A stretch of 64,000 bases of DNA from a virus. Taxonomy: Duplodnaviria > Caudoviricetes. Under the pieces are notes generated by a model. It was not told where the DNA came from. It worked only from the letters and a program-made list of their open reading frames with translations, and did not search any database. Position numbers and translations under genes: made by a program. The stretch is from positions 819-64,818 of IMG/VR virus record IMGVR_UViG_3300043775_000860; one strand, written 5' to 3'. Shown here one piece after another: positions 435-8,279 of this stretch (its first letter is position 1; every line of letters begins with the position of its first letter).

Positions 435-1028
435 TTACTGATTTAGGAGTGCAACAATATCCTTCTTGATGGCGGGGCTCATCTTGTACTTCCTGCTCAA
501 CTGCTGACCAATCTTCTCAATACCAATCTCCTTGTTCGCATTAACGTAGGCAACAACCTTGTCCCAATTCTCTGTATCCTTCTTGAGTTCAACCAAGCCA
601 TCTGACGGTGCGGCTGCCTTCTTGGTTGGCTCAGTAACCATCTCAGGTACATCCTCGCCTGTCCAAAGGCTCAGACCTAATCCGTGCATGGCAATTGCCT
701 TTGCAGTGCTTCTCTGAATTGATTTGGTTACATCTGTTGAAGTGACCTTGGCAATGGGAATTGAATTGTTCTTGAAGTCCATGACCGGTAGGTAGTCAAT
801 GTGCTCAATGCCATTAACCACAATACCAACCTTCACGTAGGCTGTAACGCCATCTGTAAAGTAATTTAAACCGGTGTGGTCGCTTTCGTAAACCTTCCTC
901 TGAGCATCGGGATAGATACTCTTTAGGGTTGCCCATGCATTTGCCCATGATAGGTAATCCAAGTTACCCTTACGCTCAATCTTGTCTTTGACGCTAATCG
1001 CTGATAGCTTTCCGTAAACTGATTCCAT
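435..1028 (-). CDS. Sak/Rad52-like single-strand annealing protein (DUF1071-like)
   Basis: YLSWANAW...YLPVMDFKN...IQRSTAKAIAMHGLGLSLWTGED motifs; likely start MESVYGK at 1028. Confidence 0.8.
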   Translation of the reverse strand: MESVYGKLSAISVKDKIERKGNLDYLSWANAWATLKSIYPDAQRKVYESDHTGLNYFTDGVTAYVKVGIVVNGIEHIDYLPVMDFKNNSIPIAKVTSTDVTKSIQRSTAKAIAMHGLGLSLWTGEDVPEMVTEPTKKAAAPSDGLVELKKDTENWDKVVAYVNANKEIGIEKIGQQLSRKYKMSPAIKKDIVALLNQ

Positions 1029-1044
1029 TGTATTTGATTTTGAT

Positions 1045-1347
1045 TTAAATGAATACTGCTTTCTCAATGTCCTTAACTACTTGGGCGTAGTCGGCATCCT
1101 CTTTAACCTTGATAGTAACTGAATTAACGCCATGGATAATAGAGGAATGCTTGATGTCATACCCATTGGCTTCCATGAATGTCTGAATGTAACCAAAGGT
1201 CATTGGTCTTCTGTAACACAGGTAGTAAAGCAAATGCCTAGCATCTACAATCCCCCGCTTCTTATTCTTGGAGAACAACTCCTGCTTTGTAATCCCAAAC
1301 AAGTCGACAACTCGGTCAACGTATTGGTTGAAAATTTCCTGCTTCAT
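1045..1347 (-). CDS. DnaA domain IV-like helix-turn-helix protein
   Basis: VVDLFGITKQELFSKNKKRGIVDARHLLYYL...KHSSIIHG resembles the DnaA C-terminal DNA-binding domain. Confidence 0.7.
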   Translation of the reverse strand: MKQEIFNQYVDRVVDLFGITKQELFSKNKKRGIVDARHLLYYLCYRRPMTFGYIQTFMEANGYDIKHSSIIHGVNSVTIKVKEDADYAQVVKDIEKAVFI

Positions 1348-1401
1348 TAGATTTAATTTAGTGAACGAATATAGTTAATATGTACAATACTCGTATAAAA
1401 T

Positions 1402-1662
1402 TTATTTAATTTTTTTCCACAAATAATCTTCAACCTTATCCACATCCTTGTCTGTGATGCCATCGGTGAAGAACTCTGCTGTGCTAAGTATCTGAATGTA
1501 GTGCGAACCCGCATAAACAATGACGTTCCTAGCGTCTACGTGCAAATTTTCGTTGGAAAAATTGTCTTTGAAGACACTAATCGGAACGATTCTGCCTGTC
1601 TCTACGAACTCTTCTTTGGTCTTGATTCCCTCCAAGGGGATTGATTGTAGTTGGTAATACAT
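1402..1662 (-). CDS. hypothetical protein
   Basis: ORF in early minus-strand cluster; probable start MYYQLQ after an A-rich leader and a TATATTTG box. Confidence 0.55.
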   Translation of the reverse strand: MYYQLQSIPLEGIKTKEEFVETGRIVPISVFKDNFSNENLHVDARNVIVYAGSHYIQILSTAEFFTDGITDKDVDKVEDYLWKKIK

Positions 1663-1701
1663 AATGTTAATTTGATTTAATTTGGTACAAATATACAACA
1701 A

Positions 1702-1941
1702 TTATTTCACATTGCTGCGCTTTAGCATATCATAATATTTTTGGGCGAACTTTACCTTCCACTCGCCCGTATGTCCATCCTCGTCAAGGGCGTACATGAT
1801 GGCGGTCTTCAGCATGAACTCCTCATCGGCTAAACTCTTCTCAAGTTCCTCTTTCATGATTCTGCTGACAAGACTTTCGTAATCATTGCCGTTCTTGTGA
1901 AGTGAATCGAATACTTTAATTAGCTTCTGTACTGTTGTCAT
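1702..1941 (-). CDS. hypothetical protein
   Basis: 79-aa ORF packed in the minus-strand operon. Confidence 0.55.
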   Translation of the reverse strand: MTTVQKLIKVFDSLHKNGNDYESLVSRIMKEELEKSLADEEFMLKTAIMYALDEDGHTGEWKVKFAQKYYDMLKRSNVK

Positions 1942-2053
1942 TTCTTTAGTTTTTTAAGCATCCAAAAAATTTCATTACCGAAGTATAGGCATAGCATAAC
2001 CGGCAAGCCTATGAAGACAAACGATAAAATTTCTACGATAAACTTTAGGTTTT

Positions 2054-2248
2054 TCATCCCCAATCTTCTTTTTTGTGTTGAACAATTTCTTCAACCTTTT
2101 CCATTGGCATGGTGTCCACCAATAGCATAAGTATTGAAGTGTTTAATTTTAACTCGTTGATGATGGTATAAACATCGTATGCGCTGATACCAATCTCCCG
2201 CATCTGTCTTAAGATTTCGGGGGTCTTTTCGTGGTTTATTATATTCAT
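2054..2248 (-). CDS. hypothetical protein
   Basis: 64-aa ORF with ATGA overlap to the upstream gene. Confidence 0.55.
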   Translation of the reverse strand: MNIINHEKTPEILRQMREIGISAYDVYTIINELKLNTSILMLLVDTMPMEKVEEIVQHKKEDWG

Positions 2249-2616
2249 CCGAAAACAATTTCACCCATTACAAGGTACTGAAAAATAGCATCGCTAGTGT
2301 CGGCATCGCCTTCTTCATTCAGTTCTGCGCTCCAAACCCTGCTGAAGTTTTTATCCTTTGACAGGTTGTTAACGCTTTCTATGATTGAGTCATGGCTTAT
2401 AACTCCAAGGCACTCTTCGGGATTCTCAAGGTCATGGATTGCCACCTCAACACCTTTGTCAAAGATTGCCATGAACATTGCCATGGACAATGCGGGTTCT
2501 TCAGACTTGGGAACCGCTTCCCTAATCTTTTTATGTTCCTTGCTTGGTATCAAATACCAATAATTGCTACCACCTTCCAAGGCGGTCACAAAAACGTTTT
2601 CCAAGATGTCTCTCAT
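2245..2616 (-). CDS. hypothetical phage protein
   Basis: 123-aa ORF (VTALEGGSNYW...DAIFQYLVMGEIVFG) coupled by overlaps to neighbours. Confidence 0.65.
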   Translation of the reverse strand: MRDILENVFVTALEGGSNYWYLIPSKEHKKIREAVPKSEEPALSMAMFMAIFDKGVEVAIHDLENPEECLGVISHDSIIESVNNLSKDKNFSRVWSAELNEEGDADTSDAIFQYLVMGEIVFG

Positions 2617-2924
2617 AAATTGTTTGTTTTTGGGATTTGTAATGATTCCGCTGCGAAGTCAATGGCTAAGAAGATTTGCTCTACAACGGCAGGATTTCTC
2701 AAGGCAATGTTTAGGATGCCTTGAGCCTCATCTTCGGTACAGCTGTAACTCTCAGTTACATCCGCGGTACACCAAAGATTGTCTGTGTAGTAGCCCATCT
2801 TTTTTAGGTTTGCTTTCAGCGTTTGTCTGTCATTTAGCTTCTTTCTTGTAATCAACAACTGCTCCCGCAGGTAGTCAATCTCAAGTTGGGCTGATGCCCT
2901 CTCGGTCATTTGTTTGTGGTTCAT
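2613..2924 (-). CDS. hypothetical protein
   Basis: Probable start MNHKQMTERA at 2924 after AAATCAAATCAAATCAAT leader; the longer ORF-track extension overlaps the tRNA-like element. Confidence 0.6.
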   Translation of the reverse strand: MNHKQMTERASAQLEIDYLREQLLITRKKLNDRQTLKANLKKMGYYTDNLWCTADVTESYSCTEDEAQGILNIALRNPAVVEQIFLAIDFAAESLQIPKTNNL

Positions 2925-2950
2925 ATTGATTTGATTTGATTTAAAGTGAG

Positions 2951-3033
2951 CCATCGGGGCAGGATTCGAACCTGCATAACCATTAACGGAATCATGACAC
3001 TTAGGTAGGCTCCACCATTTCCGACACCCGATG
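2951..3033 (-). tRNA. tRNA-like element / pseudo-tRNA (intact acceptor stem and T arm, unpaired anticodon arm)
   Basis: Minus strand: CATCGGG...GCAGG-TTCGAAT-CCTGC-CCCGATG-G, D-loop-like GGAAATGGTGGA, 83 nt; no canonical anticodon stem found. Confidence 0.6.
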
Positions 3034-3064
3034 AAAAAACCCCAATGTAGAAACATCGGGGGGT
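3034..3064 (-). terminator. intrinsic terminator-like hairpin
   Basis: Minus strand CCCCGATGTTTCTACATTGGGG followed by TTTTTT, downstream of the GATase-GGCT gene. Confidence 0.6.
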
Positions 3065-3087
3065 AAACTAACCATTAAAACACAACA

Positions 3088-4191
3088 CTATGCGTGGTAA
3101 GTTATGACTTCGTTCTCAGAAAACCAATCGTCACATCCATTGCAATGATAGTTACTGAATCCGTCATGGTCAAGGTCATTAAAACAATTTATACAGATAG
3201 GTTTCTCGTTCTTCACATCGAACTCATCATCGTCACTCAACTCGTCAAAGTACAACTGCCTACCCAACCTCCTCTCAGCCTCAAGCACCTCATCCTCATC
3301 TTCCTCCCACCACTTCTTAGTCTCGCTCTGCTTGATGAATGACACTGACTGTGTGTAGGTCTCATGAACCTCCTGCCCTCTGTACTTGTCAGCTATGTTA
3401 AAGTATATCCAACAAGTTAGCGTCCTGCCGTCCTTCATCTTGATTGGTATCTGCTTGCGCCTGTACCAATTCGGATGACCCTCCAACGCATCTAACCCCT
3501 TCATCACTGAATCACTAACCTTGAACACATCAACCTCAACATTGTACCCTATGCCCTTCATCTCAAAGAGGTAGGGCAAACCCGATATGATTAGCGGATA
3601 CTTGTCTTCTGTCTTACCTGCGCCCAAATGTTTTGAGGATGTCAAAAACCTATTGTAGTTGCTGTACCCCTTCTTGAGCGTTCCATACACCGCAACTAAA
3701 TTATCCTCAAGCACATTGCCCTTGCTGTACCAAATGCCATCACGCTGAATCCACAAGTGCTTGTTGTACATCTGAAACGTTCTGTTGCGGGTGTTGATAG
3801 TCACGAACCTGCTGTCATACTTCTCCAACTCCCTCTTCCATGTGTGCCTCGGAACATCCCCCAACGATTCAGCAAGTACCCTTGAATCACTCTTCTTGGC
3901 ATTGCCCATGCCCATGATAGTTCCGTTCATCATCAACCACTCATGCCTGTTGTTCCCGCACCTAAATGGATGCGTATTCTCTTGATTTACAGCGCCTACT
4001 GTGGCGTATCTAAAGTGACAGATGAAGGGTCTGTCGGTATCCAATACTTTGTATTGGTTTGATTTGTGGTATGTCACCTCGAAGGTGTCCAACCAAATAA
4101 CTCCTAACCCATGCGGGTTGATTCTGCTTGAGGTCTTTGCAACCTCCTTCGGAAGGGTCATACCCTTCTGCTTGATAATGATTATGCACAT
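3088..4191 (-). CDS. class II glutamine amidotransferase fused to gamma-glutamylcyclotransferase (AIG2-like), C-terminal Cys cluster
   Basis: N-terminal MC (Ntn nucleophile), HFRYAT, NTHPF, NGTI; then VYGTLKKG and LDALEG GGCT motifs; CxxC...CxxC tail. Confidence 0.85.
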   Translation of the reverse strand: MCIIIIKQKGMTLPKEVAKTSSRINPHGLGVIWLDTFEVTYHKSNQYKVLDTDRPFICHFRYATVGAVNQENTHPFRCGNNRHEWLMMNGTIMGMGNAKKSDSRVLAESLGDVPRHTWKRELEKYDSRFVTINTRNRTFQMYNKHLWIQRDGIWYSKGNVLEDNLVAVYGTLKKGYSNYNRFLTSSKHLGAGKTEDKYPLIISGLPYLFEMKGIGYNVEVDVFKVSDSVMKGLDALEGHPNWYRRKQIPIKMKDGRTLTCWIYFNIADKYRGQEVHETYTQSVSFIKQSETKKWWEEDEDEVLEAERRLGRQLYFDELSDDDEFDVKNEKPICINCFNDLDHDGFSNYHCNGCDDWFSENEVITYHA

Positions 4192-4210
4192 AGTGTTTGG
4201 TTTGTGGGTA

Positions 4211-4226
4211 GTGTCTTCGAAGACAC
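4211..4226. repeat. dispersed 16-bp palindrome GTGTCTTCGAAGACAC
   Basis: Perfect palindrome in the leader of the GATase-GGCT gene; further copies at 1562, 6141, 7959, 12513, 35948, 50565, 60271. Confidence 0.9.
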
Positions 4227-4287
4227 AGAACCCGGTTAATGTACTAAAGATGAACGAAGATACGACAATAATTGAACACTGCCAAAT

Positions 4288-4449
4288 TTACTTTTTCAAT
4301 CTTGCCTTAAATTTTTCTCTAACAAGTAGCGGACGGGTGGCTGAAAACTTTGTCCAAGCTTTCTCAACTGCCTCCCACTTGCTGTGTGCTATGATGTCTG
4401 TAATGAAGACGCCACCATAGTAGACTTTGAATAGCATTTCTGATTCCAT
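4288..4449 (-). CDS. hypothetical protein (53 aa, below ORF-track cutoff)
   Basis: Hand translation MESEMLFKVYYGGVFITDIIAHSKWEAVEKAWTKF...RLKK after an A-rich leader. Confidence 0.55.
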   Translation of the reverse strand: MESEMLFKVYYGGVFITDIIAHSKWEAVEKAWTKFSATRPLLVREKFKARLKK

Positions 4450-4469
4450 TGTGTTTTGATTTGGTTAGG

Positions 4470-4513
4470 AACTGAGGGTGGTAACGAACCACCTTCGCTC
4501 ATTGCTCTCAGTT
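4470..4513 (-). ncRNA. tRNA-like minihelix (acceptor stem + T arm only)
   Basis: Minus strand AACTGAG-(13 nt)-GGTGG-TTCGTTA-CCACC-CTCAGTT: 7-bp stem stacked on a 5-bp stem with a 7-nt TTCG loop; intergenic. Confidence 0.5.
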
Positions 4514-4521
4514 CTTGGGTG

Positions 4522-4749
4522 TTAATTTGTCGGAACCCAACCGACCTCAATTCCGATGTCATTCCCATTGGCAATGGCATCCTTGATTTCCTGAAGACTC
4601 CTGAGCCACCTGTCTGTGCCGTCAGGCATCAACTCATGGTATTCGAAGACAAGAGGACTGCACTCGAAAAGAATCTCCGCATAGGGCGTTACTACGTGCC
4701 ATACAAGGACTGAATCGTTTCTTCTGTTCGTGATTCTAAATTTTTTCAT
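4522..4749 (-). CDS. hypothetical protein
   Basis: Probable start MKKFRITNRR at 4749. Confidence 0.5.
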   Translation of the reverse strand: MKKFRITNRRNDSVLVWHVVTPYAEILFECSPLVFEYHELMPDGTDRWLRSLQEIKDAIANGNDIGIEVGWVPTN

Positions 4750-4759
4750 ACTGTTTGGT

Positions 4760-4948
4760 TTAATAATCATCATCAAGATACTCGCCCGCATCCATGTAGT
4801 CATGGTATCGGTCACGCCTGTATGGATACTTGTCACCATCGTAGCACTCGTCACACCAATGACCTGTACTTATTCCATACGCATCTGACCTCTCTTCCAC
4901 CCACTTGTCGGGATTCATCTCATGGGATTGCTCACAACCCCTGCACAT
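4760..4948 (-). CDS. small Cys-rich (zinc-finger-like) protein
   Basis: MCRGC...HWCDEC pair of CxxC motifs, acidic tail. Confidence 0.55.
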   Translation of the reverse strand: MCRGCEQSHEMNPDKWVEERSDAYGISTGHWCDECYDGDKYPYRRDRYHDYMDAGEYLDDDY

Positions 4949-4955
4949 GATTTTT

Positions 4956-5141
4956 TCACGCCTCATGGTCTTCGGTTTTGCTGTTATAAACTTCAGCACC
5001 CCACTTGGTGTGCCTGTCATGCTTGTAGACTGAAAACAAGGCATCCATGTACATCATGAATTCTTTCTTGTCTGCATCATTGAGGTAAAGCAGTCTGTCG
5101 ATTACCCCTTGAATAACTTCTAAACGCTGTTGTTCTGTCAT
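4956..5141 (-). CDS. hypothetical protein
   Basis: Short ORF downstream of a TATCTTTG box (5159-5166). Confidence 0.45.
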   Translation of the reverse strand: MTEQQRLEVIQGVIDRLLYLNDADKKEFMMYMDALFSVYKHDRHTKWGAEVYNSKTEDHEA

Positions 5142-5190
5142 GTTGTTCAATTTTAGTTCAAAGATAATACAATTCTAGATATAAACAAAA

Positions 5191-5634
5191 TTAAATTAAT
5201 CCATTCTCGTTGAATGAATAGTAGCTTTCATCTGTGATAATGAGATGGTCAAGCAACTTCATGTCAAAGAATGCACACGCGTTCTTAATCTTCTCAGTGA
5301 TTGACCTGTCGCCATCAGAAGGTTTGAGGTTGCCACTTGGATGGTTGTGGGCAAGGATGATTGAAGAGCAGGCGTTCTGCAACGCTATGGTCATTACAAC
5401 CCTTGGGTCTAAAACTGTCCCGCTGAACCCGCCCGAACTTACTCGGTAGTACCCAACAACATCATTGGCTCTGTTAAGGCACACCATGATGACCTCTTCT
5501 GTCCATAAAATTGTGTCGGCATTGAAGATTGAGCGCATAACCTCAACCATTTTTTCGGGGCTTGTGATAGTCACCCTGTCACCCTTGGTGACACTGACCT
5601 TCACCTTAATCTGTGGGAACTTGTACTTTTTCAT
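5191..5634 (-). CDS. RadC-like JAB/MPN domain protein
   Basis: E...LNRANDV...GGFSGTVLDPRVV...IILAHNHPSGNLKPSDGD...LLDHLII, the HxHPSG..S..D JAB motif. Confidence 0.9.
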   Translation of the reverse strand: MKKYKFPQIKVKVSVTKGDRVTITSPEKMVEVMRSIFNADTILWTEEVIMVCLNRANDVVGYYRVSSGGFSGTVLDPRVVMTIALQNACSSIILAHNHPSGNLKPSDGDRSITEKIKNACAFFDMKLLDHLIITDESYYSFNENGLI

Positions 5635-5650
5635 GTGCTAAATTTTAATT

Positions 5651-5718
5651 GGTTAAGACGGGAGGGGTTGCTCGTTCCTCGCTCCCGTTTCGGGTATTCA
5701 ACCCATCGTCAGTTAACC
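5651..5718 (-). ncRNA. hammerhead ribozyme, type I
   Basis: Minus strand GGTTAA-CTGACGA-T-GGGT-TGAAT-ACCC-GAAAC-GGGAG...CTCCC-GTC-TTAACC: full core, stems I-III; predicted cut between 5657 and 5656. Confidence 0.9.
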
Positions 5719-5943
5719 TCGGTGGTACTTCGACCCATCGGCGTGGGGGTTGATGCTCATGTCATGCTCGGCTTCTTGTAGCCACTTGGCATACTCAAGC
5801 ATGAGATTGACGAAATTGGTATCGTCATACCCCTCAAGGGTAATCCACATGATGTCAGCATCGCTAGTGTCTGAGGCAATGCCCTTAGAGGCTAAAAAGA
5901 ACTCCATTGTGGCGCTCCAATCGAAATGGTAGGTCTGTGTCAT
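5713..5943 (-). CDS. hypothetical protein
   Basis: 76-aa ORF whose TAA forms part of hammerhead stem I. Confidence 0.6.
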   Translation of the reverse strand: MTQTYHFDWSATMEFFLASKGIASDTSDADIMWITLEGYDDTNFVNLMLEYAKWLQEAEHDMSINPHADGSKYHRG

Positions 5944-5947
5944 GTGA

Positions 5948-6031
5948 TTAAAATTTAATGGTTAAACCTAGTAAAAGAAGGAAGGCAATGATGGTCAAGA
6001 GCAAGGCTGTGTTTGGTTCTGAATGTTTCAT
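5948..6031 (-). CDS. 27-aa single-transmembrane peptide
   Basis: Hand translation MKHSEPNTALLLTIIAFLLLLGLTIKF after leader AAAACCATTAAAC. Confidence 0.45.
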   Translation of the reverse strand: MKHSEPNTALLLTIIAFLLLLGLTIKF

Positions 6032-6086
6032 GTTTAATGGTTTTGATGGTTTCTGAGGGGGGCAGTCACGCTCTGCGTGGCTGTTT

Positions 6087-6135
6087 CCGTTTCGCCCTTT
6101 TGGGCTCATCAGCATGGGCAAACACCCATGGACGG
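6087..6135 (-). ncRNA. hammerhead ribozyme, type III
   Basis: Minus strand CC-GTC-CATGGG-TGTTTG-CCCATG-CTGATGA-GCCC-AAAA-GGGC-GAAAC-GG; predicted cut between 6131 and 6130. Confidence 0.9.
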
Positions 6136-6169
6136 TGGGAGTGTCTTTGAAGACACCCCCCTTCGCACT

Positions 6170-7066
6170 CTAAAGATACTGTTGGATGCTTTCGTGGATT
6201 GTTCCGGTAAGAATGAACTTTCGGAAATGCCTTGCCAACTCAAGAATCTCATTGGTCTTCTCTTCGTCACCATTGTACATGGATTTGATGATGGGGCGAA
6301 TGGTCTTCAGAAACGCCTCATGTGACCCATTAGGCTTGTTGACTGAGAAATCAACCAACTCATGCATCAGTTCATACCTGCGAATCATCTGCTTAACGCT
6401 TTCGAAGCGGGAAGGCACTCTGAACTCAAGGCAATTGTCTTTGACCAAGGCAACTTGGTACTTGTTATCCCAAAGGTGGGATGGGCACTCAGAATAGGTC
6501 TGCATCCTGTTGTTGTACTTGCAATAGGTGTTTTTTAACCTGTTGCGAAACAAGGCGTAAACAATGCCACAATTTCCCCTTACCATGCCCCTTAGGTCGT
6601 TACCATTGAACCCTTCAACAGCAATGGTAATGTGACCACCACAGCGTTTGTCTGAAGGGCTGAAACGGTCTTCAATGATACGGTCTGCCTTATGCATCAT
6701 GTCGAAAACCTTGTTGCGCCATGTGGATGCAGGAACAAGGGGCAGAATGTGGGTGACTGCCTCATAGCCACATGAGCCGTCCTTCTCAAACCCGCAGAAC
6801 AGCTCATATTCACGAACAGCGCTGCGGTGTAGGCTGTTTTTCTCTACCTCAAAACCAATGGTGAACTTGCTCCTGTAGTCACCGAAAGACTCAATGAGAT
6901 TGCCCCTTTGAGCCTTCTTGAGACCCGCAATGTCACCCTTCTTTGCCTTGCCCGAAATGTTGACGGGGTGGGGCTTGTTGTGGTATTCTTGAACTTGACC
7001 CCTAGACACCATTTGACGGTATCTGTTTAAGCCGTTTCCTTGCAATGTGAACTCTAAATTTTGCAT
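6170..7066 (-). CDS. putative amidoligase (COOH-NH2 ligase, glutamine synthetase-like fold)
   Basis: FTIGFEVE, DGSC.GYEAVT, CGGHIT, KY, LEFR motifs of the amidoligase-2 family; probable start MQNLEF at 7066. Confidence 0.75.
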   Translation of the reverse strand: MQNLEFTLQGNGLNRYRQMVSRGQVQEYHNKPHPVNISGKAKKGDIAGLKKAQRGNLIESFGDYRSKFTIGFEVEKNSLHRSAVREYELFCGFEKDGSCGYEAVTHILPLVPASTWRNKVFDMMHKADRIIEDRFSPSDKRCGGHITIAVEGFNGNDLRGMVRGNCGIVYALFRNRLKNTYCKYNNRMQTYSECPSHLWDNKYQVALVKDNCLEFRVPSRFESVKQMIRRYELMHELVDFSVNKPNGSHEAFLKTIRPIIKSMYNGDEEKTNEILELARHFRKFILTGTIHESIQQYL

Positions 7067-7082
7067 AAATTGAAATTTTAAT

Positions 7083-7137
7083 GGTTTGGACGGGGTTTGA
7101 CCCCCGTTTCGGCTATTCAAGCCATCATCAGCAAACC
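7083..7137 (-). ncRNA. hammerhead ribozyme, type I
   Basis: Minus strand GGTTTG-CTGATGA-T-GGCT-TGAAT-AGCC-GAAAC-GGGG-GTCAAA-CCCC-GTC-CAAACC; predicted cut between 7089 and 7088. Confidence 0.92.
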
Positions 7138-7760
7138 TATTGCGCTGAATTCATGGCATCAATCAAAAAGTTGATAGCCGACTGAATTTCATCCCTTGAA
7201 TTGGTAGTTTTGACTTCACCCGCCTCATTAATGCGGATTGAAATGTTTTTGTCGGGATGTTTGAAAGCAAGGGTAAAAATTGTGGCTGACCTTGTTTCCA
7301 CTTCAGCGCCTTCACCACCCTCTTCGCCATTTCCACCCTCTTCGCCTTGCTCCACAGCCTTTGCAAACTTCAGCAAGTTTTCAATAGACCTTACCACCTC
7401 TTCACCCCTGCCTTCAGCCTCAAGGCATTTCTGATTGAAATTCTCAATTACCCTAAAGTCTAACTTGCCGACCTTAAGCAATTTGTAGCTGAAGGATTTC
7501 TGCCACCCGAACACCTTTAGGAAAAACTCCTCATTTGTCCAACTTATGCCCTCCTCATTCATCTTGGCTTTGCCCTCTTCTGAGGAAAACCAAGCAAATG
7601 AATCCTTAACGGCATTGGCCAACAGAATGCTGTTGTCAAATTTTTTCTTCTGTGCATTGGTGTCGGCTCTTCTCAATGCATTGATGGTTTGGAGATTCAA
7701 GAACCTCTTCACTTCGGGATTACTAAGAAACGCCTGTTCGATTGAAAGTAAATTGCTCAT
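7137..7760 (-). CDS. hypothetical protein, first gene of the early leftward operon
   Basis: 207-aa ORF with Gly/Glu linker; its stop codon abuts the hammerhead. Confidence 0.7.
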   Translation of the reverse strand: MSNLLSIEQAFLSNPEVKRFLNLQTINALRRADTNAQKKKFDNSILLANAVKDSFAWFSSEEGKAKMNEEGISWTNEEFFLKVFGWQKSFSYKLLKVGKLDFRVIENFNQKCLEAEGRGEEVVRSIENLLKFAKAVEQGEEGGNGEEGGEGAEVETRSATIFTLAFKHPDKNISIRINEAGEVKTTNSRDEIQSAINFLIDAMNSAQ

Positions 7761-7958
7761 TGTTTTTGTGTTTAATGATTAAATATTTCACAATACTAGT
7801 TCAATACTTTTACATTTCCAAAAATATTTGAAACTTTTTTCCGAAATACTTTTCATTTCAGCGCAAACCATTGTCAACAAAGGGATTGAGCTAGTTGATT
7901 GAATAGACGAAAATTTGACGGGGAATGAATAGAGCGGGGGGTTAACCCCCTCTTCGGG

Positions 7959-7974
7959 GTGTCTTCGAAGACAC
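7959..7974. repeat. dispersed palindrome GTGTCTTCGAAGACAC
   Basis: Perfect copy in the divergence region. Confidence 0.9.
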
Positions 7975-8279
7975 TTTTGTTTTAAGTTTTACTTGAGGTA
8001 AGCCTTGCAAGGCGTTGATATTGAATAAATTAACAGGGCTGTGAATATTGCGCAGGATGCGGGGCAGGGGGCGGGGCAATTTCGAACAGCGCAGGTGTGG
8101 CGCTCCTATCATGTGGCAAAAAGCTAAAAAATCGACCGAAGCAGGGCAAGGTCAGACCCCCACCCCCTCAAAAAAAAGTCGTTTCCGGGCGGGGCCCACG
8201 CTCGCAGAACCGCTATATAACCCCCGTACTACGCATATCTGAATTACGCAATTGCTTATCTTTACTGAAACTTTATTTT

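What the first reader, a model, noticed from the sequence alone, without database searches (positions are those of the whole stretch)
5651..7137. Three hammerhead ribozymes punctuate one early operon, two cutting exactly 22 nt before the next start codon
Seen: within 1.5 kb on the coding (minus) strand are two type I hammerheads (7083-7137, 5651-5718) and one type III (6087-6135), each with CUGAnGA, GAAAC and GUC core and three stems. The type I pair share the stem II loop UGAAU with compensatory stems (GGCU/AGCC vs GGGU/ACCC) and an extra U after the core. Both begin at the upstream gene's stop codon and would cleave 22 nt upstream of the next ATG (7066 amidoligase; 5634 RadC/JAB), leaving near-identical A-rich leaders (..ACCATTAAAATTT.. 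and ..ACCAATTAAAATTT..). Established: hammerheads self-cleave after GUC, leaving 5'-OH and 2',3'-cyclic phosphate ends, and single ones occur in phage intergenic DNA. Inference: the phage cuts its earliest polycistron into mono- or di-cistronic mRNAs with standardized 5'-OH leaders without host RNases, tuning stability and translation of host-takeover genes.
Basis: partly seen in the sequence, partly recalled or inferred. Interest (0 to 1): 0.92.

Follow-up and report, generated by a model that had tools for sequence, protein, structure and literature searches.

The report
Three hammerhead ribozymes in phage operon
Three genuine self-cutting hammerhead RNAs sit between genes of one operon in an uncultured lake phage, a well-conserved example of an arrangement already described for phages and prophages in 2011.

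Summary
A descriptor for the hammerhead core plus three helices finds exactly these three sites in 64 kb, both strands. In 200 shuffles the mean is 0.045 hits. The stop-codon overlap and both 22-nt leaders are as described.

In 69 related phage loci the same descriptor gives 104 hammerheads on the coding strand and 0 on the other. Covariation is strong. Five complete relatives carry 3-4 each, all within 4.1 kb of the same operon.

Rfam misses them: the type III scores 42 bits against a cut-off of 48.5, and the type I pair gets no hit.

It is the standard hypothesis of Perreault et al. 2011 (PMC3088659). "Exactly 22 nt" is one mode of an 18-33 nt range. The A-rich leader motif also precedes genes without a ribozyme. 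"Early" and "host takeover" are untested, and no RNA data exist.

Added here:
- Type I is replaced by type III at the same junction in relatives.
- A strong hairpin precedes nearly every type III.
- One window ribozyme is a chimera of two in a relative, marking a cassette gain or loss.

This scan has noted similar phage hammerhead punctuation in many other genomes.

The parts
7083..7137 (-). Type I hammerhead HH-A. Stem I 6 bp, extra U after the CUGAUGA core, stem II GGCU/AGCC with loop UGAAU, stem III 6 bp. Predicted cut after C7089.
7067..7088 (-). 22-nt leader left on the 298-aa gene mRNA after HH-A cleavage (5'-OH end at 7088). It contains AACCATTAAA.
6137..6160 (-). 10-bp hairpin with a UCAA loop carrying the genome-wide palindrome GTGTCTTnnAAGACAC. 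It ends 1 nt before stem III of the type III hammerhead and would become the 3' end of the upstream product.
6087..6135 (-). Type III hammerhead. Stem I 7 bp, stem II GCCC/GGGC, stem III 4 bp. Predicted cut after C6131. The Rfam RF00008 match is 6084-6138.
6065..6083 (-). Second small hairpin between the type III hammerhead and the leader of the 27-aa ORF (ATG 6031).
5651..5718 (-). Type I hammerhead HH-B. Stem I GGUUAA/UUAACC, extra U, stem II GGGU/ACCC with loop UGAAU, stem III 7 bp. Predicted cut after C5657. It is a chimera of the two type I hammerheads of relative G001.
5635..5656 (-). 22-nt leader of the RadC/JAB gene after HH-B cleavage.
7137..7760 (-). 207-aa gene with no family match. 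Its TAG stop (7139-7137) overlaps the first base of HH-A.
6170..7066 (-). No Pfam or PHROG hit; weak Atlas lead to PF12224.
5948..6031 (-). 27-aa hydrophobic ORF, the first ORF after the type III hammerhead.
5713..5943 (-). 76-aa gene. Its TAA stop (5715-5713) lies inside the 5' strand of HH-B stem I.
5191..5634 (-). RadC-like JAB domain protein (PF04002, E 7.2e-38).

Best explanation
The three elements are cis-acting self-cleaving hammerhead ribozymes, transcribed as part of one minus-strand operon of a roughly 65-kb uncultured lake phage. The host probably does not use Shine-Dalgarno sites and may be a Bacteroidota-type bacterium.

Proposed mechanism (inferred, not shown): each ribozyme folds and cuts once after its GUC. 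This would split the transcript into four pieces:
1. The 207-aa gene mRNA, ending in the HH-A body.
2. A 958-nt RNA (7088-6131) carrying the 298-aa gene. It has a 5'-OH, a 22-nt unstructured leader and a 3' end capped by the 10-bp hairpin plus ACCGUC>p.
3. A 474-nt RNA (6130-5657) that begins with the type III body and carries the 27-aa and 76-aa ORFs.
4. The RadC-and-downstream mRNA, with a 5'-OH 22-nt leader.

In both topologies the helix that holds the two products together is short: stem I of 6 bp in type I, stem III of 4-6 bp in type III. The products should therefore separate readily.

The upstream product keeps a stable 3' structure. The downstream product gets either a bare short A-rich leader (type I) or a structured 5' cap followed by about 21 nt of leader (type III). 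The likely effect is that each gene or gene pair has a stability and translation of its own, independent of its neighbours.

Shown: motif, position, strand bias, covariation, conservation. Inferred: cleavage in vivo and its consequences.
For: - Motif and significance.
- 69 related loci: 104 strict descriptor hits on the coding strand against 0 on the other. 46 of 69 loci have at least one. The hits are 82 type III, 22 type I and 0 type II. Core-only matches are 137 against 9. The relaxed descriptor gives 107 against 0.
- Covariation, type III, 68 rows: 93.2% of cells paired against 33-43% when slid; 13 of 17 pairs change on both sides.
- Covariation, type I, 34 rows: 98.6% against 27-40%; 13 of 15 pairs.
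- Position, type I: the 3' edge lies 12-27 nt before the next ATG in 21 of 24. The upstream stop overlaps the ribozyme's 5' end (-4 to +17) in 23 of 24.
- Position, type III: the 3' edge lies 12-28 nt before the ATG in 59 of 82, and 19-23 nt in 46.
- A type III sits just after the 298-aa gene in 34 of 54 assessable relatives, down to 44% protein identity.
- At the junction before that gene the window has type I. Relatives L010, L011, L013 and L014 have type III and L012 has type I. So the cut site is kept while the ribozyme form is swapped.
- A strong hairpin lies directly upstream of type III in 60 of 69 distinct contexts (MFE <= -10 kcal/mol; mean -15.9 against -6.9 shuffled).
- Five complete relatives have 3, 3, 4, 4 and 4 hammerheads, all within 2.2-4.1 kb of this operon and none elsewhere at E<=0.001. 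The window has no further copy.
- Precedent: Perreault 2011 reports triple hammerhead arrangements in prophages cleaving in vitro, and one in E. coli. It also reports a halovirus hammerhead 13 nt before a start codon whose cut site matches a mapped 5' end (PMC3088659).
Against: - No cleavage or RNA-end data. No RNA run holds the sequence (not evidence either way).
- Rfam's curated thresholds are not reached. Only 2 hammerheads in 20 related loci pass.
- The closest relative, G001, has UUC instead of GUC in both of its type I hammerheads at the RadC junction. This breaks the C15.2-G16.2 pair next to the cut site, so cleavage there may be weak or lost while the fold is kept.
- Both window type I ribozymes carry an extra U between the core and stem II, and have a plain 6-bp stem I with no obvious tertiary contact. 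Activity at cellular Mg2+ is therefore unproven.
- With flanking sequence the MFE of HH-A does not keep stem I.
- Many relatives lack a ribozyme at the same junctions, so the cuts are dispensable.
- Part of the pairing is by selection, because the rows were picked by a descriptor that demands 3-4 pairs per helix.
Confidence: 0.72

Rival explanations
1. The ribozyme plus leader is mainly a portable boundary module of small-gene cassettes. It insulates expression of whatever ORF follows it from the upstream context, as a natural counterpart of synthetic ribozyme insulators. Its conserved sequence also serves as the homology at which cassettes are gained, lost or swapped. This does not exclude cleavage; it shifts what is selected.
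For: - Window HH-B is a chimera. It matches G001 HH1 from the upstream gene through CGAAACGGG, and G001 HH2 from there through the leader and the RadC start. G001 has an extra 88-aa ORF between its two ribozymes.
- G001's hairpin plus type III before the 298-aa gene is 88.75% identical to the window's element after that gene, so elements are copied between junctions.
- ORFs that follow hammerheads are diverse. 86 of 106 match none of the window's operon proteins, and those 86 fall into 43 clusters, mostly 36-111 aa.
- Contig L083 has 10 type I matches to model R2 in 5.8 kb, and 8 strict hits arranged as ribozyme, 12-28 nt leader, 47-111 aa ORF.
Against: - One chimera is a single event.
- Recombination at any conserved repeat is expected and need not be selected.
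- The type III just after the 298-aa gene is conserved in place over deep divergence, which suggests a local function rather than mobility.
Confidence: 0.3
2. The elements act mainly as folded RNA structures, and cleavage is secondary or lost. They would serve as 3' stabilisers or 5' caps, as ribosome or RNase barriers, or as protein-binding sites together with the palindromic hairpin.
For: - G001 keeps fold, core and spacing but has a mismatch at 15.2/16.2 in two ribozymes.
- A sequence-conserved palindromic hairpin accompanies 40 of 69 type III contexts. It also forms stem III of type I ribozymes in L012, L049 and L052. This hints at a bound factor.
Against: - CUGANGA, GAAA and the A15.1-U16.1 pair are invariant in the aligned rows. 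H17 is never G by construction of the descriptor. Stems vary freely.
- That pattern is what selection for catalysis predicts. A mere hairpin would not need the core.
Confidence: 0.1
3. Cleavage is conditional on translation of the upstream gene. The upstream stop codon lies inside stem I or the core of type I ribozymes. A terminating ribosome would therefore unfold the ribozyme, and cutting would report or tune the ribosome load on the upstream cistron.
For: The stop codon overlaps the type I 5' end in 23 of 24 cases. GGUUAACUGAUGA offers TAA and TGA in two frames.
Against: - The overlap may only reflect compaction of a dense genome.
- Type III ribozymes sit 19-67 nt after the stop in 76 of 82 cases and cannot work this way.
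Confidence: 0.1
4. The excised RNAs between two cuts have a 5'-OH and a 2',3'-cyclic phosphate. A host RtcB-type ligase joins them into circular or spliced RNAs.
For: The end chemistry of hammerhead products fits RtcB substrates (established chemistry, recalled). Two internal fragments of 958 and 474 nt are defined by the three sites.
Against: Perreault 2011 looked for spliced or circular products from clustered hammerheads and found none. Nothing in the sequence calls for it.
Confidence: 0.03

Closest known systems
Clustered cis hammerheads flanking genes in prophages and phages (Perreault et al. 2011, PLoS Comput Biol, PMC3088659; passages read)
   Same: - Several hammerheads within a few kb, on the coding strand, flanking single genes or short gene blocks whose identity is not constant.
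- The proposed role is processing of long phage transcripts.
- Mixed types occur in one cluster.
   Different: - Here the arrangement is followed through one phage lineage: 69 loci and 5 complete genomes, confined to one operon.
- There are quantified spacing rules, a swap of topology at one junction, an obligatory upstream hairpin for type III, and a ribozyme-ribozyme recombinant.
- Whether Perreault's figures or supplements already show such details I could not see.
HHphage of haloviruses HF1/HF2 (described in PMC3088659)
   Same: A hammerhead directly upstream of a start codon (13 nt) in an early polycistronic unit. A mapped 5' end lies near the cut site.
   Different: It is an archaeal virus with a variant core that needs high Mg2+, and there is a single copy.
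Rfam Hammerhead_3 (RF00008) and Hammerhead_1 (RF00163)
   Same: Same core and helix topology. The type III aligns end to end with RF00008.
   Different: - Scores are below gathering (42 against 48.5).
- The type I pair, with an extra U after A9 and a plain 6-bp stem I, is not reported by RF00163 at all.
- Only 2 hammerheads in 20 related loci pass.
Hammerhead with an extra core nucleotide (De la Pena and Flores 2001, J Biol Chem 276:34586; only the title was seen, in reference lists)
   Same: A natural hammerhead tolerates one extra nucleotide in the consensus core.
   Different: That case is a viroid type III. That the position is the same (between A9 and G10.1) is my recollection and was not checked.
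Synthetic ribozyme insulators such as RiboJ (recalled; no call)
   Same: A self-cleaving ribozyme placed before a coding sequence gives a defined 5'-OH leader independent of the upstream context.
   Different: These are engineered, derived from a satellite RNA ribozyme, and leave a hairpin. Here the elements are natural and come in two topologies.

Membership tests
Hammerhead ribozyme | Conserved core: CUGANGA, GAAA, A15.1-U16.1 pair, cleavage triplet NUH | tested here: met
   All three sites have CUGA(U/C)GA, GAAAC and GUC. The two type I have one extra U between A9 and stem II.
Hammerhead ribozyme | Three helices around the core in the right order (type I open at stem I, type III open at stem III) | tested here: met
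   Descriptor hits with stems of 6/4/6, 6/4/7 and 7/4/4 bp. The MFE of the isolated type I sequences is the three-way junction.
Hammerhead ribozyme | Helices supported by compensatory changes in homologues | tested here: met
   Type III: 13 of 17 pairs change on both sides, 93.2% paired. Type I: 13 of 15 pairs, 98.6% paired. Caveat: the rows were chosen by a pairing descriptor.
Hammerhead ribozyme | Score at or above Rfam's curated gathering threshold | tested here: not met
   RF00008 scores 42.0 bits against 48.5. RF00163 gives no match at E<=10. This is an annotation threshold, not a biochemical criterion.
Hammerhead ribozyme | Site-specific self-cleavage giving 2',3'-cyclic phosphate and 5'-OH ends | not testable with these tools
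   No RNA run holds the sequence.
Hammerhead ribozyme | Tertiary contact between stems I and II for activity at low Mg2+ | tested here: inconclusive
   Three positions of the type I stem II loop are invariant or nearly so, and there are invariant unpaired A residues on both sides of stem I. Type III loops I and II are also conserved. No contact could be demonstrated.
Clustered phage/prophage hammerheads (Perreault 2011) | Two or more hammerheads within a few kb, on the gene strand, flanking genes in a phage context | tested here: met
   Three within 1.5 kb in the window. Five complete relatives have 3-4 each within 2.2-4.1 kb. The strand bias is 104 to 0.
One-to-many (trans or split) hammerhead systems noted elsewhere in this scan | Extra substrate-like sites (GUC plus the stem I 3' strand) without a catalytic strand of their own | tested here: not met
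   GTCYWAACCA occurs only at the two cis sites. The covariance models find no partial copies.

The most novel reading that the evidence does not exclude
In phages of hosts that do not use Shine-Dalgarno sites, 'hairpin-hammerhead-leader' units are natural, portable expression insulators and recombination joints for small-gene cassettes.

- Either topology places a stable, sequence-conserved hairpin just 5' of the cut and about 20 nt of unstructured A-rich leader 3' of it.
- Every cassette therefore yields an mRNA with a capped 3' end and a defined 5'-OH start, whatever its neighbours are.
- The conserved ribozyme sequence is itself the site at which cassettes are inserted, deleted and exchanged, as in the chimeric HH-B.
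- The conserved palindrome in the hairpin may bind a phage factor that couples this processing to the infection programme.
Probability: 0.25. Interest if true: 0.6.

Novelty: new member of a known kind. Interest (0 to 1): 0.4.

Why it matters
Reviews call the role of bacterial and phage hammerheads an open question (PMC6765202; PMC6155905). This window adds no new kind of element. The lineage around it does offer an unusually clean comparative data set:
- more than 100 ribozymes at defined junctions of one operon;
- tight spacing to start codons;
- interchange of type I and type III at one junction;
- a constant hairpin partner;
- a ribozyme-ribozyme recombinant.

These regularities turn 'they probably process mRNA' into specific predictions about RNA ends, product stability and context-independent translation. 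The predictions could be tested in vitro and, once a host is found, in vivo.

The result also shows that Rfam thresholds miss almost all of these ribozymes: 2 hits in 20 loci, where the descriptor finds 61 hammerheads (58 distinct sites).

Tried and rejected
- **Single-protein locus search:** The search for related loci with the 298-aa protein alone found no relative. An alignment with G001's ortholog was needed.
- **GenBank phages:** one metagenomic relative only, MW202828.1, at 46% identity. Neither the relaxed descriptor nor the models found a hammerhead in its locus L079. There is no cultured relative, so no host is known.
- **RNA evidence:** no RNA holder is listed for window 4400-8000.
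- **Laid DNA contigs:** four lake or freshwater DNA runs showed no differing letters and no informative joints. Short pieces of other contigs match only the ribozyme core (5686-5719) and the palindrome (6139-6161). Nothing follows for expression.
- **tRNA genes:** ARAGORN finds none in the window.
- **Type II hammerheads:** none in the window or the relatives.
- **Other Rfam matches near the sites:** CRISPR-DR56, wcaG, SECIS_4 and CC0196 at E 1.4-9.2. I take these as chance.
- **Trans or split hammerhead idea:** rejected for this window.
- **Sigma-70 promoter scan:** no enrichment, 14 found against 18.6 expected. The first minus-strand terminator-like site downstream of the ribozymes is at 3061-3040. 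The scan does not cover non-sigma-70-type promoters.
- **Pfam and PHROGs for the 298-aa and 207-aa proteins:** no hits.
- **Supplements:** the supplementary figures of PMC3088659 (gene-context and activity figures) could not be seen and may already show similar arrays.
- **Rows dropped:** one nested duplicate hit (L051, 5973) was dropped before the spacing and alignment counts. The 34-row type I alignment includes 9 rows from loci found with a pattern that demanded the extra U. The frequency of the U variant in that alignment is therefore biased.
Full report
**What is there.** The window is nearly all of a 64,818-bp IMG/VR virus record with direct terminal repeats, rated 100% complete.

On the minus strand a run of genes starts near 7760:
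- a 207-aa protein (7760-7137);
- a 298-aa protein (7066-6170);
- a 27-aa hydrophobic ORF (6031-5948);
- a 76-aa protein (5943-5713);
- a RadC-like JAB protein (5634-5191; PF04002, E 7.2e-38);
- further on, a GATase/gamma-glutamyl-cyclotransferase fusion (4191-3088).

**Is it more than chance?** I wrote a descriptor for the core CUGANGA, GAAA and UH. It demands stems of at least 4/3/3 pairs, allows an optional 1-nt insert after the core, and covers all three topologies.
- It returns these three sites and nothing else in 64 kb on both strands.
- In 200 dinucleotide-preserving shuffles the mean total was 0.045 hits and the maximum 2.
- The real stems (6/4/6, 6/4/7 and 7/4/4 bp) are well above the minimum.
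- Folded alone, both type I sequences give the hammerhead junction as MFE and centroid.
- With about 100 nt of context the MFE of HH-A replaces stem I by another pairing at an ensemble frequency of 0.02. The centroid of HH-B keeps all three stems. The type III keeps stems I and II between two flanking hairpins.

Rfam 15 reports nothing at gathering score. The type III reaches 42.0 bits against a cut-off of 48.5 (E 3.2e-07 on 2.2 kb). The type I pair is not reported by RF00163 even at E<=10.

- Cuts after C7089, C6131 and C5657 give 5' ends at 7088, 6130 and 5656.
- ATG 7066 and ATG 5634 each lie 22 nt after a cut.
- TAG 7139-7137 and TAA 5715-5713 overlap the 5' strand of stem I.
- Both type I share the loop UGAAU, compensatory stem II (GGCU/AGCC against GGGU/ACCC) and an extra U after CUGANGA.

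All of these are confirmed.

**Relatives.** A pattern made from the type I core found six other viral contigs, each with covarying stems I and III. Most carry 2-3 type I hammerheads. One of them, G001, is a syntenic relative with 79% identity in the 298-aa protein.

An alignment of the two 298-aa proteins then retrieved 69 loci from IMG/VR. Over their 472,782 bases:
- The strict descriptor finds 104 hammerheads, all on the coding strand and none on the other. 46 of 69 loci have at least one.
- The hits are 82 type III, 22 type I and no type II.
- Matches to the core alone, without any stem requirement, number 137 against 9.
- A relaxed descriptor gives 107 against 0.

Rfam's gathering score is passed by only 2 hammerheads in 20 of these loci.

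**Covariation.** For 68 distinct type III rows, 93.2% of cells pair, against 33-43% when partners are slid. 13 of 17 pairs change on both sides. For 34 type I rows the figures are 98.6%, 27-40% and 13 of 15.

Two caveats apply. The rows were chosen by a descriptor that demands 3-4 pairs per helix, so some pairing is by selection. Two type III rows with the U insert are misaligned in stem II. The strand asymmetry does not suffer from this.

**Where the ribozymes sit.** Covariance models built from these alignments find no further copy in the window with filters off. In five complete relatives (62-64 kb, terminal repeats) they find 3, 3, 4, 4 and 4 hammerheads. All lie within 2.2-4.1 kb next to the 298-aa gene, and none elsewhere at E<=0.001. 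In this lineage the ribozymes belong to one operon.

**Spacing rules.**

| | Type I (n=24, window included) | Type III (n=82, window included) |
|---|---|---|
| 3' edge to next ATG | 12-27 nt in 21 | 12-28 nt in 59; 19-23 nt in 46; 38-54 nt in 16, several with an extra hairpin |
| Cut to ATG | 18-33 nt; 19 nt in 6, 22 nt in 6 (the window's two among them) | not computed |
| Upstream stop relative to 5' edge | -4 to +17 in 23 | 19-67 nt before it in 76 |

So 22 nt is a mode, not a rule.

For the window's type III my ORF threshold of 30 aa skipped the 27-aa ORF. The real distance to ATG 6031 is 55 nt and includes a small hairpin.

**A constant partner.** The 42 nt before each type III fold into a strong hairpin in 60 of 69 distinct contexts (MFE <= -10 kcal/mol; mean -15.9 against -6.9 for shuffles). 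In most of the contexts listed the hairpin ends within a few nt of stem III.
- 40 of the 69 carry the palindrome GTGTCTTnnAAGACAC.
- The same palindrome occurs 9 times in the window, against 0.01 expected.
- It also forms stem III of type I ribozymes in L012, L049 and L052. Other sublineages use a palindrome of their own in both positions.

In both topologies, therefore, a stable hairpin lies just 5' of the cut and would end the upstream product. In both, the helix that holds the two products together is short: stem I is always 6 bp in the 24 type I, and stem III is 4-7 bp in type III.

**Turnover at fixed junctions.**
- After the 298-aa gene: a type III is present in 34 of 54 assessable relatives, down to 44% protein identity.
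- Before that gene: 9 of 69 relatives have a hammerhead (6 type III, 3 type I). All five closest loci have one: L010, L011, L013 and L014 have type III and L012 has type I. The window has type I.
- G001's element before the gene is 88.75% identical to the window's element after the gene.
- At the RadC junction G001 has two type I ribozymes flanking an extra 88-aa ORF. The window's single HH-B equals G001's first ribozyme up to CGAAACGGG and its second from there on. This indicates a deletion or insertion by recombination between ribozymes.

Both G001 ribozymes read UUC where the window reads GUC. This unpairs C15.2 and is the clearest point against uniform catalytic activity.

ORFs that follow hammerheads are varied. 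86 of 106 match none of the window's operon proteins, and those 86 form 43 clusters.

**Host and leaders.** None of 39 ORFs of at least 120 aa has an SD-like 4-mer at -18 to -4. Leaders are 48% A and 10% G. From recollection, this is the pattern of Bacteroidota.

A scan of one genome per prokaryote species for the GGTTAA-stem type I found 11 stretches. Six are in Bacteroidota, including a complete Paraflavitalea chromosome with two copies. The rest are mostly short contigs of metagenome bins.

The leader motif AACCA(A)TTAAA precedes five consecutive start codons (7760, 7066, 6031, 5943, 5634), with or without a ribozyme. The 'standard leader' is therefore an operon feature. Its first bases are used as the 3' strand of stem I.

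**What is known.**
- Perreault et al. [quoted passage not shown] They say this implies processing of long phage transcripts, and that three tandem arrangements cleaved in vitro and one in E. coli. They also describe a halovirus hammerhead 13 nt before a start codon (PMC3088659; passages and section 8 read).
- Reviews of 2017 and 2019 repeat this and call the biological role open (PMC6155905; PMC6765202; passages only).
- My searches turned up no paper on this phage lineage, on the hairpin-hammerhead unit or on ribozyme-ribozyme recombinants. The library lacks most subscription journals, and supplements were closed.
- This scan's notebook holds 717 notes with the words hammerhead, ribozyme, phage and intergenic, in at least 610 genomes. 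Several are operon-punctuating sets.

**Verdict.** The mechanism proposed is the accepted hypothesis and remains untested here. The finding is a new, well-conserved member of a known kind. Its comparative regularities are worth a specialist's attention but are not a surprise.

Noticed in passing
window 1562, 4211, 6141, 7959, 12513, 28852, 35948, 50565, 60271 (16 nt each): The palindrome GTGTCTTnnAAGACAC occurs 9 times, against 0.01 expected. The copy at 6141 is the hairpin directly before the type III hammerhead. In relatives it precedes 40 of 69 distinct type III contexts and forms stem III of some type I ribozymes. Its role is unknown: an RNA hairpin, or a site for a protein.
   Followed up: partly
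window 4470-4513 (-): The gap before ATG 4449 holds an acceptor-stem plus T-arm-like minihelix (GGTGG TTCGTTA CCACC inside a longer stem), ending about 20 nt before the start codon. That is the same spacing as the hammerheads. ARAGORN calls no tRNA. It may be an RNase P/Z-type processing signal doing the same job.
   Followed up: partly
window 7780-7771, 7086-7077, 6042-6033, 5963-5954, 5654-5644 (-): The leader motif AACCA(A)TTAAA (AATCATTAAA at 7780-7771) precedes five consecutive start codons of the operon, with or without a ribozyme.
   Followed up: partly
L083 (5,798-nt contig binned in an Aliivibrio MAG), + strand 533-4573: An array of 10 type I hammerhead matches to model R2 (8 strict hits). 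Each is followed by a 12-28 nt leader and a 47-111 aa ORF, and the ORF's stop abuts the next ribozyme in some cases. L087/L090 show 6 each and L088 shows 4.
   Followed up: partly
L009 7482-7410 and 7134-7067 (-) (relative G001): Both type I hammerheads read UUC instead of GUC, a C15.2/U16.2 mismatch, while the core, stems and spacing are kept. They flank an 88-aa ORF that is absent from the window.
   Followed up: partly
whole window: No Shine-Dalgarno use: 0 of 39 long ORFs. Leaders are A-rich and G-poor, with A peaks at -12/-11, -5 and -3. TATTTTTG at 7826-7819 (-) ahead of the first gene resembles, from recollection, the Bacteroidota -7 promoter element TAnnTTTG.
   Followed up: no
L089 (Paraflavitalea speifideaquila chromosome NZ_CP135920.1), locus 3830-4075 (-): Two type I hammerheads of the same GGUUAA-stem family lie about 100-175 nt apart in a cultured Bacteroidota genome. 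This could be an experimentally tractable relative.
   Followed up: no
window 6170-7066 (-): The 298-aa protein that anchors the operon has no Pfam or PHROG match. It does have at least 69 viral relatives. The only lead to Amidoligase_2 is an Atlas neighbour cluster in which 12% of members carry PF12224.
   Followed up: partly
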